Shown: positions 1-6,261 of the stretch, one piece after another | How positions within the stretch are numbered: the stretch's first letter is position 1 | Layout of the letters: each line of letters opens with the position of its first letter | Assembly: GCA_000004985.1 (NCBI GenBank) | Contig: GG738892.1 | DNA length: 64,000 bases | Strand: one strand, 5' to 3' | Source of the DNA: Naegleria gruberi | Lineage: Eukaryota | Notes under the pieces: generated by a model | Seen by the model: the letters and a program-made list of their open reading frames with translations, nothing else | Database searches by the model: none | What the model was told of the DNA's origin: nothing | Program-made: the position numbers and the translations under genes

Positions 1-1460
1 TAATTTCATTGTAAATGGAGGTATTGGAATACCAAATGAGCATTATCACATTTGGAGAGATGGTTACAATAGCTATTTATATGCAACTGGTAAGAGATTT
101 AAGCAATCTTTACAAAAGCATCATGTCAATAATTCGATAATGACTGATGCCAAATTGAGATTAATTAGAGAAAAGTGGAATACTGCCATTTCTGGAAAAA
201 GCCAACAAAAGAAAAATCAAGTGAGATCTAAAAGGGATGAGAATAAATCCTTGTTAAATCTCATCAAGAAGATTATTAAGGATCGATTATTTATGAGAAA
301 GTACTTTGATGGTGATAGGTTTAAATCTAAGAGATTTGAATTTCGTGAACAGATTTATTTTGAAAAGAAACTTCAAGTTCATGATTCTCTTCTTCGTTAT
401 ACTGATCACAAGAAGTATTTAGCTAAATTGGAGGAAGCCAAGAAATTGTACAACAATCAAGACACATTGGAGAAACAAATTGAAAGTTTAATTCATTCTG
501 AATATGAAAAGCCAGAGATTGAGGAGATTATAATTGGAGATTTACATGACAATAGTGGACCAACTGATCTATTTCTNNNNNNNNNNNNNNNNNNNNNNNN
601 NNNNNNNNNNNNNNNNNNNNNNNNNNNNNNNNNNNNNNNNNNNNNNNNNNNNNNNNNNNNNNNNNNNNNNNNNNNNNNNNNNNNNNNNNNNNNNNNNNNN
701 NNNNNNNNNNNNNNNNNNNNNNNNNNNNNNNNNNNNNNNNNNNNNNNNNNNNNNNNNNNNNNNNNNNNNNNNNNNNNNNNNNNNNNNNNNNNNNNNNNNN
801 NNNNNNNNNNNNNNNNNNNNNNNNNNNNNNNNNNNNNNNNNNNNNNNNNNNNNNNNNNNNNNNNNNNNNNNNNNNNNNNNNNNNNNNNNNNNNNNNNNNN
901 NNNNNNNNNNNNNNNNNNNNNNNNNNNNNNNNNNNNNNNNNNNNNNNNNNNNNNNNNNNNNNNNNNNNNNNNNNNNNNNNNNNNNNNNNNNNNNNNNNNN
1001 NNNNNNNNNNNNNNNNNNNNNNNNNNNNNNNNNNNNNNNNNNNNNNNNNNNNNNNNNNNNNNNNNNNNNNNNNNNNNNNNNNNNNNNNNNNNNNNNNNNN
1101 NNNNNNNNNNNNNNNNNNNNNNNNNNNNNNNNNNNNNNNNNNNNNNNNNNNNNNNNNNNNNNNNNNNNNNNNNNNNNNNNNNNNNNNNNNNNNNNNNNNN
1201 NNNNNNNNNNNNNNNNNNNNNNNNNNNNNNNNNNNNNNNNNNNNNNNNNNNNNNNNNNNNNNNNNNNNNNNNNNNNNNNNNNNNNNNNNNNNNNNNNNNN
1301 NNNNNNNNNNNNNNNNNNNNNNNNNNNNNNNNNNNNNNNNNNNTACATGGACCCCTTTCACATGGAAAATATTGTGGAAATATTTGATAGACTTGGAATT
1401 GTTCTGGATGTGTATTATTATGAAAGGTATAAAATAGATGAGTATGTTTTCGATTGGTAA
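1..1460 (+). CDS. Partial gene of unknown function, lysine-rich. The reading frame is open from the window start and is interrupted by an assembly gap, and the frame differs on the two sides of the gap.
   Basis: The ORF is open from position 2 through 577. After the N-run a protein-like frame continues to a stop at 1460 (..YMDPFHMENIVEIFDRLGIVLDVYYYERYKIDEYVFDW). I recognise no domain. Confidence 0.3.
578..1343. other. Assembly gap (run of N).
   Basis: Continuous n characters. Confidence 0.99.
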
Positions 1461-1738: not shown

Positions 1739-3347
1739 TTATTGAATATGTTGGCTTTCTTGGTAAGTTGGAGTAGCACTGAATCGTTGATAACCCTTAA
1801 TTACCTTATTGATAGCATCGAGCATATCCTTTTCGGAAACTGTCTTTCTTCTTGCTCGAATAGCAAACATACCAGCTTCTGTACAAACAGATCTAATTTC
1901 AGCACCTGTAGCATTAGGACACAAACGAGCCAATAATTCATATCTGATATCCTTGTCAACGTTCATATTCTTGGCGTGAATTCTGAAAATGTTAGTTCTT
2001 GCTTCAAGATCTGGAAGACCAAATTCAATCTTACGATCCAATCTACCAGGTCTCATCAAAGCAGGATCCAGAATATCTGGTCTGTTAGTAGCCATGAGAA
2101 CCTTAATATTACCACGAGCCTCAAAACCATCCAATTGGTTGACAATTTCAAGCATAGTTCTTTGAACTTCATTGTCACCACCAGCACCATCGTCAAAACG
2201 AGTACCACCAATAGCATCAACTTCATCAAAGAAAATAATACAAGCTTTACGTTGACGAGCCATTTGGAACAATTCTCTTACCATACGAGCGCCTTCACCG
2301 ACATATTTTTGAACCAATTCAGATCCAATAACACGAATAAAGGTAGCATCGGTTCTGTTAGCAACAGCTCTAGCAAGCAATGTTTTACCAGTACCTGGTG
2401 GACCATAGAGCAAGACTAATTTTTCAATTAAAGTAAAAACTCAAATAGTGACACTTACCTCCTTTTGGTGGGTCAATACCAAGACCTTCGAATTTTTCTG
2501 GATGGAGAAGTGGTGTCTCAACAACTTCACGGATTTTATCAATTTGCTCCTTAGATCCACCAATATCATTATATGTAATATCTGGTTTTTCTTCCACAGT
2601 CATCATTGTAACACTGGCATCAATTTTTGGAGGGAGTGGAATACGAATTTGATATTTTGTACGATCAACACCAATACGCATACCTTCTTCAATATCTGTT
2701 GGTGCTACGTTTTCTCCTAATCCTACAACATATTTAGCAATTTGACGAACATTGATGAGGTACTTTGGTTCCTCTTCATCATCATCAATAATTTTTGTAC
2801 ATCTAGCAACTTGCAATGGCATTTCATGTTGAAGAGTTGCTTTATCTTGTTGAATATCCCAAAGACTTGGATTTGCCAAGCCAGTATCAGATTCCTTTAC
2901 ACCACATAATTCATTTACTTCTTGTACCATTTTCTTAAGGCCATCTTCTGTTTCTTTTCTATGATATTGTTGATTCAATAATTATAAAATTGATCCAAAT
3001 TAATCCGAACAATAAAATTGTAGCAAGTTGATCAGGTTGTAAATCATCATTTTCAGTCATTAATGTTAGTGTTATGAGTTATTGTTATTAACGAAAATAT
3101 AGTAGATATACATTATTATACAATATAAGTAATATGTTAAGATTGTACAAAATCTAAGCTACTTTGTTTTGAAGCTAGCGACTTACATTTTTCCAGAGTA
3201 TGGTCCTTGTCCATATCGTTTAATCAATTTAATTTCTTCGGCATCCAATGGATTTATAGGTGTATCTTTCTTTTCATCTTCCTTGTTATCACTTGATTCT
3301 GGTTTCTTTTCCTCTGGTTTCTTATTGTCTTGTTCTTGTTGAGACAT
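1739..3347 (-). CDS. RPT1: 26S proteasome regulatory ATPase subunit Rpt1 (PSMC2/S7 orthologue). Three exons: 3347..3189, 2958..2460 and 2415..1739.
   Basis: Exon 1 translates as [13 protein letters not shown]...[13 protein letters not shown]. Across a ~230-nt GTAAGT...AG intron it continues [28 protein letters not shown]...QVARCTKII...IDPPKG. Across a 44-nt intron it continues [18 protein letters not shown] (Walker A)...[25 protein letters not shown]...[26 protein letters not shown]...[10 protein letters not shown]. This is collinear with human PSMC2 as I recall it, including the C-terminal KFSATPRY region. Confidence 0.9.
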
Positions 3348-3513: not shown

Positions 3514-5852
3514 TTAATCATAGTCATTGAAACTTTGTTCCTCATTTTCAAAGGATCCAAGTATTTGCTCCAATTCTTCACTTGGCATGAATACTTCACT
3601 GCCATAAGTTGGTGGAATATTTGTCACGGTTGGAAGAAAGTTATGTTGTAAATGTTGTGGATTAATATCAGCAAAGGATGGTGGTAAATGAGTTTGATTG
3701 ATCATATTTACATCAAATGAATGTTGTTGGGATTGGATTGAATTATTTCTCATAGAAGATGCTTGAACACTGATAGTGTTACAAATTTGGGAAAGAAGTT
3801 CTGATACAGAGGGATCATTAAGCGTATTATTTGTTGGATTGATGGGAATAAATGCTTGTTGAGGTGATTGGAATTCTCCAGATGAGCTAGAACTAGTGTA
3901 CGGTGATGAGGTTGAGGAAGAGGATGAAGACATGATTTCTTCAAATCTTGGAGGTTGAGGATTAACATTTCCAAATGGTAAGTTAGGATTCATAGTTGGT
4001 GCTGTTTGAGTGTTAATTACAGGTTGTTGGGTAGGTGGTTGTTGTCTCTTTGCAATTTGGGATGTTAATTCCTCAATTGAATTGACAGTATTGGTTCCTT
4101 CTATTACTTCTGCTTGTTCTTTCATAATTATTCCACAAAACTTGTTAACTCTTCCATATCTTGTTCCTAGTATTTTCAAAGCTCTTAATCCTTTAGCTAC
4201 ATAATCGTAATAGTCAATACCCTCTGCTAAATTAACTCGTTTTCCAACTCTTATCATTCTAATTATTGACAAGTGAACTTTACAAGCGCCAGCCACAACA
4301 CTGGTTAAGGCTACAGGTACAACTGGGAATGTTTCTTTTGTAGTTTCATCAATAATCTTGTTGGCAGATACTTCAATTAAGTGACCTCGAATACCAGCCT
4401 CAATTAAAATTCTCATTCGAGAACCATGATAGACCATACTGTCAGTAATGGTGGCTAATTCTCGTTGTTCAGGAGTAAACGAAAATGTTTGATTGTGAAG
4501 AGTAAGGAATGAACAAACGCTATCTAGTAATCCAAGATAACTAATGACGTTTTGAGGAGTAATTTTCTGTTTAGCAATTGTCATATATTCCTCTGGCATT
4601 TGTCTACCAGTGGCATATCTATAAATTAATGTCAGTCTTGTACACATGAAATGTTCATCTTCAGTTGAGTGATAATTTTGTGAATCTATACTCAATCGTG
4701 TAACTGTTTTAACCTTGTCCAAATTTTTCATTTCAGGTGTCAAATTATCATGATCCAACAAGTTCTTTTCTTTGAAATAGTAATCTACATTATTTAAATA
4801 GAATCTTGCTCTACTATCATCTCCTTCTCCTGCAAAAAAGTAACTAATGTAATTAAATGTACTAACTACAAAGAAATCGTCACACTTATCGAATAGGGAT
4901 GATAAAAGTTGTTTTGAAATATTGATATCTTCCATAGCTCGTTCTCGTCTTCCTAATCGTTGTTCAACAAGGGCTTGAATAGAAAATACTAAAGCCATCA
5001 ATTCTGTATTATTATATGGATTTTCTGTAAAGAGAAAATCTTCCAAGACTTTTCTTCCAACAACAGGATGCCCTCCTGAAACAATATTGAAATAAGAATC
5101 AATAGTATTAATTTTCAAAAATTGTTTGTAGAGAGAGTAATTCTCGCTTAATAAATTATTCAATGTTGATGGAATGAGCATTGTTAATTTCTTTCTTAAT
5201 TCAAAATCTTGTTCTGGATTTGTAGGAACAGGATATGGATCTTTTCTTTGAGAGTATTTCAATCTACTTCCTTGTATTTCATTCTCCGAACTTATTAATA
5301 AATTACTTGCTTGATTTTGAGAAATTGCCAATTGATTTGTTGATGATCCTGGTGCTCCTGTATCCTTCTTCTTTTTGTTTTTACCTCCTCTAATTCTTCC
5401 TTTCTTTTTTGGTTCTCTATATATACATTCTCTTCCTCTTAGTTGGCATTCACTGCAAATTGGTAATTTCTATTTAAATAATAATAATTAATATTAATTT
5501 CAAAAGTATGCAATTTATACTTACCTTGTCACACTACACAATGATAAATTAATAATCATACAAGTTAAATTCCTTACCTTTTTATGCTAAACAATAAATA
5601 AATTAATAATCAATTAATTGATAAAATCCTTACCATACTTCTACAAGTTGCACAAGCAATAGGATGATATGAAAAATTTGGATCTCTTGGTGTATCATCA
5701 TTATCAAATTCGTCATCATCATCAAAATCATTAGCTTGTTTTCCAACAAGAGATTCTGAGCCGAAAGTTGACATCGGATTGAATTCTCCAGATGAACTCA
5801 TGATGTTGTTATTATTATTGTTGTTATTGAGAGTTTTTATATAAAATTTCAA
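3514..5852 (-). CDS. Zn(II)2Cys6 binuclear-cluster transcription factor with a C-terminal fungal-specific TF-like region. Five exons including two 9-nt microexons (5586..5578 and 5533..5525). The alternative start is the ATG at 5801.
   Basis: The spliced DNA-binding domain reads ...YHPIACATCRSM|HKK|CDK|KLPICSECQLRGRECIY, i.e. C-x2-C-x6-C-x6-C-x2-C-x6-C. All three introns (47, 44 and 55 nt) begin GTAAG and end AG. The large 3' exon (5469..3514) encodes a 605-aa region typical of fungal Zn-cluster factors and ends in a Ser/Gln/Asn-rich tail. Confidence 0.75.
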
Positions 5853-6261
5853 AGATTCTTTTAAATGTGATTTAGTCGATCGAACAACTCCTATTCCGCA
5901 ACAATCAAGTATTAATTTTCTTTAATTTTTTGTTGTGTGTTGTTGAATATTTTCTGATTCAATTTGTCAATGATGATGTTGACGTTTGTTTTTGCTAATG
6001 TTGTGGTGATGAAGGAGATTTGGAAATTTGCCGTTGATTTTTAGCAGCAAGCTTGGCCTTCTTCTCTCTTTGCGCAAGTTTTTAAAAATTTGAATGAATG
6101 GACAAGGGAAAAATAAAAGGCAAGGTTGTTGTATAATACCTCAATGATTCCTACTCAAAATGAAGTCGTTAGATTCCTTATTAATATGATGGAAACATTC
6201 ATAATACTGTTATAAATTGAATATCTGGATTGTCAGAGTTGAGTTGTGTGAATAGGTTTAT

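What the first reader, a model, noticed from the sequence alone, without database searches (positions are those of the whole stretch)
5461..5640. Two consecutive 9-nt microexons encode the centre of a Zn2Cys6 DNA-binding domain
The six cysteines of the binuclear cluster are spread over four exons. Exon 1 ends ..IACATCRSM. A 9-nt exon CATAAAAAG (HKK, plus 5586..5578) is followed by a second 9-nt exon TGTGACAAG (CDK, 5533..5525), and the next exon begins KLPICSECQLRGRECIY. Each is bounded by canonical GTAAG...AG introns of 44-55 nt, and the join restores the exact CX2CX6CX6CX2CX6C spacing. Tandem 3-codon microexons are rare and hard for gene predictors, so this gene is likely mis-annotated in automated gene sets. 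It also makes alternative skipping of a Cys-bearing exon a possible regulatory switch.
Basis: seen in the sequence. Interest (0 to 1): 0.6.

Follow-up and report, generated by a model that had tools for sequence, protein, structure and literature searches.

The report
Two 9-nt microexons in Naegleria Zn2Cys6 gene
The two tiny three-codon exons are real features of a Naegleria gruberi transcription-factor gene and are already in its public annotation; the only new point is that one of the three introns looks like a recent copy of its neighbour.

Summary
On the minus strand, exon 1 (5801..5634) is followed by a 47-nt intron, the exon CATAAAAAG (HKK, 5586..5578), a 44-nt intron, the exon TGTGACAAG (CDK, 5533..5525), a 55-nt intron and exon 4 (5469..3514). 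Together they give a 713-aa ORF with a canonical CX2CX6CX6CX2CX6C cluster.

The window is Naegleria gruberi, not a fungus. The spliced protein is identical to GenBank EFC40490.1 / XP_002673234.1 (NAEGRDRAFT_71642). The claim "likely mis-annotated" is therefore wrong for this gene. A Naegleria fowleri paralogue, FDP41_010721, does have a 12-nt QCDK microexon skipped in its GenBank model.

The CDK microexon is conserved in three other Naegleria orthologues, with only synonymous changes and unalignable flanking introns. The HKK microexon exists only in N. gruberi, because an extra intron (intron 1) splits HKK from exon 1.

Intron 1 is about 80% identical to the adjacent intron 2. That is far above shuffled, natural AT-rich or orthologous-intron controls, and it suggests a recent local intron duplication.

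There is no evidence for regulated skipping, and I could not obtain transcript reads. Overall this is an ordinary, already-annotated gene structure with a modestly interesting intron-gain footnote.

The parts
5634..5801 (-). Exon 1 (CDS part). It runs from the ATG at 5801 to ..SYHPIACATCRSM and carries Cys1 and Cys2 of the Zn2Cys6 cluster.
   Evidence: It is identical to the N-terminus of XP_002673234.1.
5587..5633 (-). Intron 1, 47 nt, phase 0, GTAAGG...TTTAG. It is present only in N. gruberi and is about 80% identical to intron 2.
   Evidence: Read-through meets a TGA after 8 codons (ORF 5610..5852). The intron is absent from L001, L004 and L005.
5578..5586 (-). Microexon 1, CATAAAAAG = His-Lys-Lys, residues 4-6 of the X6 spacer between Cys2 and Cys3.
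   Evidence: The same HKK peptide is encoded as part of exon 1 in three other Naegleria orthologues.
5534..5577 (-). Intron 2, 44 nt, phase 0, GTAAGG...TGTAG. Its position is conserved in all four Naegleria orthologues.
5525..5533 (-). Microexon 2, TGTGACAAG = Cys-Asp-Lys, carrying Cys3. It is conserved as a 9-nt exon across the genus.
   Evidence: The orthologues have TGCGATAAG, TGTGATAAG and TGTGACAAG, which differ only synonymously, between diverged introns.
5470..5524 (-). Intron 3, 55 nt, phase 0, GTAAGT...AATAG. Its position is conserved in the orthologues and in the N. fowleri paralogue FDP41_010721.
3514..5469 (-). Exon 4. It encodes KLPICSECQLRGRECIY (Cys4-6), a basic linker (KKKGRIRGGKNKKKK) and a roughly 350-aa domain shared by a heterolobosean family. 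The stop codon is at 3516..3514.
   Evidence: No Pfam family other than Zn_clus is found.

Best explanation
The locus is the 5' part of Naegleria gruberi gene NAEGRDRAFT_71642. It encodes a Gal4-type Zn2Cys6 transcription factor belonging to a family found so far in Heterolobosea.

The DNA-binding domain is split by three short phase-0 introns of 47, 44 and 55 nt. All three have strong AAG/ATG|GTAAG donors and YAG acceptors. Removing all three joins exon 1, two 9-nt microexons (HKK, and CDK carrying Cys3) and exon 4 into the canonical CX2CX6CX6CX2CX6C cluster.

The CDK microexon is old. It is shared by at least four Naegleria lineages and its codons are under purifying selection.

The HKK microexon is young. 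It arose when an additional intron, intron 1, appeared 9 nt upstream of intron 2 in the N. gruberi lineage. Intron 1 is most likely a copy of intron 2, made in one of two ways:
- intron transposition into the gene's own transcript;
- a local tandem duplication followed by a 9-nt deletion.

Shown here: the DNA, the unique frame-restoring path, identity to the public protein, conservation in orthologues, and the intron 1-intron 2 similarity. Inferred: that splicing is constitutive, the direction of change (gain rather than loss), and the mechanism of the intron change.
For: - The exact structure and a 713-aa ORF are confirmed.
- The spliced protein is identical to EFC40490.1 / XP_002673234.1.
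- Pfam Zn_clus scores 40.6 bits only when both microexons are included.
- Only 1 of 113 in-frame splice paths gives six Cys.
- The domain aligns without gaps to the LAC9 DNA-binding domain (1cld) and with a single one-residue gap to PUT3 (1ajy).
- Orthologue DNA from N. lovaniensis (L001), N. fowleri (L004) and an unnamed Naegleria (L005) has AAAAAG or AAGAAG|GT...AG|TG(T/C)GA(T/C)AAG|GTAAGT...AG|AAA. That is the same 9-nt CDK exon with synonymous changes, with HKK fused to exon 1.
- The introns flanking CDK in N. fowleri and N. lovaniensis are at most 58% identical, with alignment scores of 5 or less, although the two proteins are 87% identical.
- The N. lovaniensis and N. fowleri models were made with BRAKER1 using RNA-seq (PMC6125883, PMC6831594) and include the CDK exon.
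- Intron 1 versus intron 2 has a global alignment score of 25. This was reached by 0 of 20000 mononucleotide shuffles and 4 of 20000 dinucleotide shuffles.
- The core score of 17 was reached by 0 of 21396 and 0 of 12886 natural AT-rich segments of the window.
- The shared 15-mer TGATTATTAATTTAT occurs only in these two introns in 64 kb, against 0.09 expected.
- Other real introns in the window are 43-60 nt with GTAAGT..YAG ends, so the sizes are normal for this genome.
- A second strain (L006) has an identical sequence here.
Against: - No transcript or cDNA evidence for N. gruberi could be reached. A protein search with the N-terminus returned nothing, and no transcript-derived ORF is in the protein cluster.
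- The intron similarity rests on only about 45 nt of AT-rich sequence that must also carry shared splicing signals.
- The four orthologues form an effectively unrooted three-way split. Parsimony alone therefore cannot exclude an old intron 1 that was lost elsewhere and later homogenised with intron 2 by gene conversion.
- A simple one-step tandem duplication does not reproduce the present arrangement.
Confidence: 0.88

Rival explanations
1. Regulated alternative splicing. One or both frame-preserving 9-nt exons are skipped under some conditions. This would give a protein without Cys3 or with a shortened spacer, that is, a switch that turns DNA binding off.
For: Both exons are 9 nt, so skipping keeps the reading frame (one search lists the HKK-only, CDK-only and both-skipped products). 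Without them the Pfam score falls to or below threshold. Exon skipping does occur in N. gruberi transcriptomes in general (PMC6142364).
Against: All three donors are near-consensus GTAAG, which fits constitutive use. The introns flanking the conserved CDK exon show no sequence conservation even between N. fowleri and N. lovaniensis. Regulated microexons in animals, by contrast, have conserved intronic flanks (own knowledge). Related family members encode the same domain with no intron at all, so the split is not needed for function. No isoform data are available.
Confidence: 0.06
2. Intron 1 is ancestral and was lost in the other Naegleria lineages. Its similarity to intron 2 would then reflect gene conversion or convergent splicing signals, not a recent gain.
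For: The orthologue tree is effectively a three-way split. If the root lies on the N. gruberi branch, one loss is as parsimonious as one gain. Intron loss is generally commoner than gain (PMC3443670).
Against: None of five other family members examined in Naegleria, Willaertia and Acrasis has an intron at the M|H position. The 80% identity between intron 1 and intron 2 exceeds that of orthologous introns between two species whose proteins are 87% identical. It also exceeds all other intron pairs in the window, which score 18 or less. An old intron should have lost such similarity.
Confidence: 0.2
3. The HKK segment is not used, or the gene is decaying. Exon 1 would splice directly to CDK or to exon 4, or intron 1 would be retained, and the N. 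gruberi protein would have no functional zinc cluster.
For: There is no direct transcript evidence. A 9-nt exon between two introns could be sterically hard to recognise (inference).
Against: The HKK peptide is identical in the orthologues, where it is ordinary exon sequence. The whole 713-aa ORF is intact. Two strains differ at only 6 of 2288 nt, with 2 amino-acid changes. Retaining intron 1 gives a stop after 8 codons.
Confidence: 0.03

Closest known systems
Gal4 / LAC9 / PUT3-type Zn(II)2Cys6 binuclear cluster DNA-binding domain (Pfam PF00172)
   Same: The CX2CX6CX6CX2CX6C spacing is identical, followed by a basic linker. Pfam scores 34.7-40.6 bits. The domain aligns to the solved LAC9 domain (1cld) without gaps and to PUT3 (1ajy, 1zme) with one one-residue gap.
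   Different: The host is a heterolobosean amoeba, not a fungus. The rest of the protein has no detectable fungal middle-homology domain (PF04082 or PF11951). Instead it has a roughly 350-aa domain shared by 117 cluster representatives whose named members are Naegleria, Willaertia and Acrasis.
N. fowleri FDP41_010721, a paralogue in the same family, with a 12-nt QCDK microexon
   Same: Cys3 is carried on a tiny exon flanked by two introns, and the downstream intron is at the same CDK|KLP position.
   Different: The exon is 12 nt and the upstream intron lies one codon earlier (HK|QCDK). The GenBank model skips the exon, so the annotated protein scores 20.3 bits instead of 38.6. There is only one microexon, not two.
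Intron gain by copying an existing intron: intron transposition or duplication. Examples are Drosophila Xdh, 'New Drosophila introns originate by duplication' (Tarrio et al. 1998, own knowledge), and fungal intron transposition (Torriani et al. 2011, as reviewed in PMC3488318 and PMC3443670)
   Same: A lineage-specific intron shows clear sequence similarity to a pre-existing intron, is inserted precisely and leaves the coding sequence unchanged.
   Different: Source and copy lie only 9 nt apart in the same gene, and the gain creates a microexon. The evidence is a single pair of introns about 45 nt long. The mechanism is not shown: it could be reverse splicing with reverse transcription, or tandem duplication plus a deletion.
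Animal and plant microexons (3-30 nt)
   Same: These are very short, frame-preserving internal coding exons with canonical splice sites that encode a few residues inside a structured domain.
   Different: There is no evidence of tissue- or condition-specific inclusion and no conserved intronic enhancers. The setting is short, intron-defined introns in a protist.

Membership tests
Zn(II)2Cys6 binuclear cluster DNA-binding domain (PF00172) | Six cysteines spaced CX2CX6CX5-12CX2CX6-8C | tested here: met
   CATCRSMHKKCDKKLPICSECQLRGREC after splicing. It is the only one of 113 in-frame paths with this motif.
Zn(II)2Cys6 binuclear cluster DNA-binding domain (PF00172) | Profile match above Pfam's gathering score (21 bits) | tested here: met
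   34.7 bits for the whole protein and 40.6 bits for the isolated domain.
Zn(II)2Cys6 binuclear cluster DNA-binding domain (PF00172) | Binds two Zn ions and CGG-type DNA half-sites | not testable with these tools
   Requires biochemistry. Only similarity to the LAC9 and PUT3 structures was shown.
Fungal zinc-cluster regulators (full-length architecture) | Middle homology region (Pfam Fungal_trans PF04082 or Fungal_trans_2 PF11951) | tested here: not met
   No hit at E<=1 in this protein or at E<=0.1 in ten family members. Structural similarity was not tested.
Microexon | Internal coding exon of 30 nt or less, bounded by a canonical 3' AG and 5' GT | tested here: met
   Two 9-nt exons, TAG|CATAAAAAG|GTAAGG and TAG|TGTGACAAG|GTAAGT.
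Microexon | Inclusion in the mature mRNA shown by transcript sequence | not testable with these tools
   No N. gruberi transcript-derived sequence was found. The evidence is indirect: the public model is identical, and the BRAKER1/RNA-seq models of two sister species contain the CDK exon.
Microexon | Evolutionary conservation of the exon | tested here: met
   The CDK exon is conserved in four Naegleria lineages with synonymous changes only. HKK is a separate exon only in N. gruberi.
Regulated alternative (cassette) microexon | Conserved flanking intronic sequence and two observed isoforms | tested here: not met
   The flanking introns are at most 58% identical between N. fowleri and N. lovaniensis, with no conserved block. 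Isoforms could not be tested.
Intron gain by intron duplication or transposition | Intron present in one lineage and absent at the same site in orthologues | tested here: met
   Intron 1 is absent in L001, L004 and L005 and present in the window and L006.
Intron gain by intron duplication or transposition | Significant sequence similarity of the new intron to a donor intron | tested here: met
   Score 25, reached by 0 of 20000 and 4 of 20000 shuffles. No natural AT-rich segment of the window reaches the core score, 0 of 21396 and 0 of 12886. The shared 15-mer is unique to the two introns.
Intron gain by intron duplication or transposition | Polarity established (gain, not loss) on a rooted phylogeny | tested here: inconclusive
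   The orthologues form a three-way split. Paralogues lack an intron at this site but have variable structures.

The most novel reading that the evidence does not exclude
Intron 1 (5633..5587) is a recent gain specific to N. gruberi. It was made by copying the neighbouring intron 2 into a site only 9 nt upstream in the same gene, and this created a new 3-codon microexon. That would be a clean, datable example of a spliceosomal intron spawning a second intron next to itself, by reverse splicing into its own transcript or by local duplication plus deletion. It would also show how tandem microexons can arise.
Probability: 0.6. Interest if true: 0.5.

Novelty: already known. Interest (0 to 1): 0.28.

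Why it matters
For the original claim it matters little. The gene model with both microexons has been public since the 2010 N. gruberi annotation, and the protein is an ordinary Zn2Cys6 factor.

Two smaller points have some value.
- Microexons in this heterolobosean transcription-factor family do defeat annotation in at least one paralogue, N. fowleri FDP41_010721. That protein loses its Pfam domain call as a result, so counts of Zn2Cys6 factors in Naegleria may be too low.
- The intron 1/intron 2 pair is a candidate for a recent intron gain from a neighbouring intron. This mechanism is much discussed but has few clean examples (PMC3443670).

Tried and rejected
- I looked for transcript-derived proteins covering the junctions. 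A protein search with the N-terminal 157 aa returned no hit at all, probably because of the sparse word index. The 90% cluster holds only genomic ORFs and the GenBank model.
- Two metagenome scans for more orthologues or cDNA-like contigs found nothing. One used a profile-derived pattern and one a degenerate KKKGRIRGGKNKKKK pattern.
- I first suspected a fungus such as Pneumocystis or Neocallimastigomycota from the AT-richness and short introns. This was rejected by the homology hits to Naegleria.
- The apparent 5% GC region at 501-1500 is an assembly gap of Ns, not an AT-rich element.
- I tested whether the intron 1/intron 2 sequence is a dispersed introner-like repeat. There are no other copies in the 64-kb window. 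The whole genome could not be searched.
- I tested whether a simple tandem duplication explains the structure. TRF finds no array with a period near 54. Direct repeats with 53-56 nt spacing exist, but the two microexons match at only 5 of 9 positions. One-step models give the wrong exon order, so a deletion or an intron transposition is needed.
- A regex hit for a six-Cys motif at + 49364 is a different Cys-rich ORF, not a zinc cluster.
- Literature searches for Naegleria with microexon, Zn2Cys6 or Zn_clus, and for microexon with Zn2Cys6, found nothing relevant.
- Look-ups of two further paralogues (P0020, P0023) found no record.

Full report
**Observation.** Reading the minus strand of 5200-5900 and slicing it by script reproduces every detail of the finding.
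- An ATG at 5801 opens exon 1, which ends at 5634 with ..SYHPIACATCRSM.
- Intron 1 (5633..5587) is 47 nt, GTAAGG...TTTAG.
- The 9-nt exon CATAAAAAG (HKK) is at 5586..5578.
- Intron 2 (5577..5534) is 44 nt, GTAAGG...TGTAG.
- The 9-nt exon TGTGACAAG (CDK) is at 5533..5525.
- Intron 3 (5524..5470) is 55 nt, GTAAGT...AATAG.
- Exon 4 starts at 5469 with KLPICSECQLRGRECIY and stays open to the stop at 3514.

The join is 2142 nt and encodes 713 aa. Without splicing, exon 1 reads into a stop after eight codons (ORF 5610..5852).

**Is it more than chance?** I enumerated every GT..AG path from exon 1 into the exon-4 frame, allowing up to three introns of 30-300 nt. There are 113 stop-free in-frame paths, and exactly one has a complete CX2CX6CX5-12CX2CX6-8C motif: the proposed one. 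Pfam PF00172 (gathering score 21 bits) gives 40.6 bits with both microexons. It gives 24.9 with CDK only, 21.1 with HKK only and 18.9 with neither. The spliced domain aligns to the solved LAC9 domain without gaps and to PUT3 with a single one-residue gap. Other genuine introns in the window are 43-60 nt with GTAAGT...YAG ends, for example 2458..2416 in the neighbouring proteasome gene and four introns at 45384-44035. The intron sizes are therefore typical for this genome.

**What the locus is.** A homology search places the gene in Naegleria. A cluster look-up shows a 713-aa member, EFC40490.1 / XP_002673234.1 / NAEGRDRAFT_71642 / UniProt D2VRM9 of Naegleria gruberi. My spliced translation is identical to it. 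The window is therefore N. gruberi genomic DNA, and the public annotation already contains both microexons. This refutes the expectation that the gene is mis-annotated.

A second, independent assembly from an ENA metagenome (L006) carries the gene with six ungapped differences in 2288 nt, the first at gene position 617, so the split domain is identical. The structure is not an assembly artefact.

The downstream neighbour is the proteasome ATPase Rpt1/PRS7. This gene order is conserved in N. lovaniensis, N. fowleri and L006.

**Comparative evidence.** I fetched orthologue DNA from three sources:
- N. lovaniensis C9374_000095 (L001);
- an N. fowleri contig whose ORF clusters with FDP41_003227 (L004);
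- an unnamed Naegleria from a JGI metagenome (L005).

All three read ...ATGCACAA(A/G)AAG|GT...AG|TG(T/C)GA(T/C)AAG|GTAAGT...AG|AAA(C/T)T.... The 9-nt CDK exon and both flanking intron positions are therefore conserved across lineages whose proteins are only 63-70% identical. Substitutions in the exon are synonymous only.

The flanking introns do not align. Even between N. fowleri and N. lovaniensis, whose proteins are 87% identical, they are at most 58% identical, with alignment scores of 5 or less. This is the signature of a real coding exon.

The N. lovaniensis and N. fowleri gene sets were produced by BRAKER1 with RNA-seq data (PMC6125883, PMC6831594). Both models contain HKKCDKK. In these three orthologues HKK is simply the end of exon 1. 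The HKK microexon exists only in N. gruberi, because of the extra intron 1.

**The wider family.** A full HMMER scan with the exon-4 protein finds 117 cluster representatives. The named ones come from N. gruberi, N. lovaniensis, N. fowleri, Willaertia magna and Acrasis kona. They share the Zn cluster and a roughly 350-aa C-terminal domain with no Pfam match.

Intron content of the DNA-binding domain varies across the family:

| Gene | Introns in the domain |
|---|---|
| Acrasis KAL0478077 | none |
| N. fowleri tandem paralogue | none |
| W. magna KAL9646072 | one phase-2 intron in the codon after His |
| N. lovaniensis C9374_007813 | one phase-2 intron in the codon after His |
| N. fowleri FDP41_010721 | two introns around a 12-nt exon CAATGCGATAAG (QCDK) |

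The GenBank model of FDP41_010721 skips that exon (CRKMHKKLPSC) and scores 20.3 bits. Restoring it gives 38.6 bits.

**Origin of intron 1.** Intron 1 and intron 2 align end to end with about 36 identities over 44-47 nt, a global score of 25.
- No mononucleotide shuffle out of 20000 reaches this score, and only 4 of 20000 dinucleotide shuffles do.
- The other 27 pairs among eight real introns of the window score 18 or less, and most score 12 or less.
- The cores, without the splice sites, score 17. This is reached by none of 21396 and none of 12886 natural AT-rich segments of the window.
- The shared 15-mer TGATTATTAATTTAT occurs nowhere else in the 64 kb, against 0.09 expected.

The two neighbouring introns are much more alike than orthologous introns of two closely related species. 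No other family member examined has an intron at the M|H site. The most economical reading is a recent gain of intron 1 by copying intron 2.

The mechanism is open. The first option is intron transposition by reverse splicing into the gene's own transcript, followed by reverse transcription and recombination (PMC3443670). The second is a 53-nt tandem duplication of [HKK + intron 2] followed by deletion of the first HKK. A one-step tandem duplication does not give the observed order. TRF sees no array. Direct repeats at 53-56 nt spacing include the microexons only weakly, at 5 of 9 positions.

The polarity remains formally unproven, because the four orthologues form a three-way split. Gene conversion between an old intron 1 and intron 2 also cannot be excluded.

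**The regulatory-switch idea.** Skipping either exon would keep the frame and destroy the cluster. Nothing supports regulated skipping, however. The donors are consensus, the flanking introns are not conserved, and relatives work with an unsplit domain. N. gruberi RNA-seq exists (PRJEB23822; PMC6142364) but could not be queried here.

**Novelty and verdict.** The structure is real, correctly described and already present in GenBank and RefSeq. I found no paper discussing it. It is an ordinary Zn2Cys6 factor gene with an unusual but annotated exon layout. The added value of this check is fourfold:
- the organism is identified as Naegleria gruberi;
- the CDK microexon is shown to be genus-wide;
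- a mis-annotated paralogue is identified;
- there is a moderately supported case that the second microexon was created by a recent duplication of the adjacent intron.

Noticed in passing
window 577-1344: A run of N (an assembly gap) interrupts an ORF-bearing region. It explains the apparent 5-9% GC in the composition profile at 501-1500.
   Followed up: yes
L002:3706-3972 (N. fowleri GCA_008403515.1, gene FDP41_010721): The GenBank model skips a 12-nt microexon CAATGCGATAAG (QCDK, L002:3774-3785) that carries Cys3. The annotated protein reads CRKMHKKLPSC and falls below the Pfam Zn_clus threshold (20.3 bits). Restoring the exon gives 38.6 bits.
   Followed up: yes
L003:187-460 (N. lovaniensis C9374_007813, partial model): The annotated protein leaves the zinc cluster after ..KLPSCSE (it reads ..CSEYAPSEQ). 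The genomic sequence continues in frame as CSECIDKGKECCYRTPKKKG, which raises Pfam from 26.8 to 38.8 bits. The cause is probably a false intron call.
   Followed up: partly
L001, about 3800 onward (N. lovaniensis C9374_000095): The exon-4 reading frame breaks after ..NTELMA (ELMAWYFRYKR*), where the orthologues read ELMALVFSIQALVEQ. The GenBank model bridges the break and lacks about 50 conserved residues. This is probably a long-read indel error or a real frameshift.
   Followed up: partly
window 1739-3347 (-): A proteasome 26S ATPase Rpt1/PRS7 gene lies directly downstream of the Zn2Cys6 gene and has at least two short introns, one of them 2458..2416 (43 nt). This gene order is conserved in N. 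lovaniensis, N. fowleri and the L006 strain.
   Followed up: partly
window 3514-5150 (-) and proteins P0012-P0125: The roughly 350-aa region after the zinc cluster defines a family of 117 cluster representatives at 50% identity. Named members come from Naegleria, Willaertia and Acrasis. No Pfam domain was detected and I found no literature on it. It may be a heterolobosean counterpart of the fungal middle-homology region.
   Followed up: partly
window 49364 (+): A Cys-rich ORF (CGNCCDTCESCDSDGKCTSYSCNCVCCTEAIDELC) matches a loose six-Cys regular expression but is not a Zn2Cys6 domain.
   Followed up: no
window 5520-5542 and 5573-5595: A 23-nt direct repeat, 78% identical with 53-nt spacing, covers the intron 3' end, the microexon and the next GTAAG: ATTGTGTAG|TGTGACAAG|GTAAG versus ATTGTTTAG|CATAAAAAG|GTAAG. 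The duplicated unit may therefore have included the 9-nt exon, although the exons themselves match at only 5 of 9 positions.
   Followed up: partly
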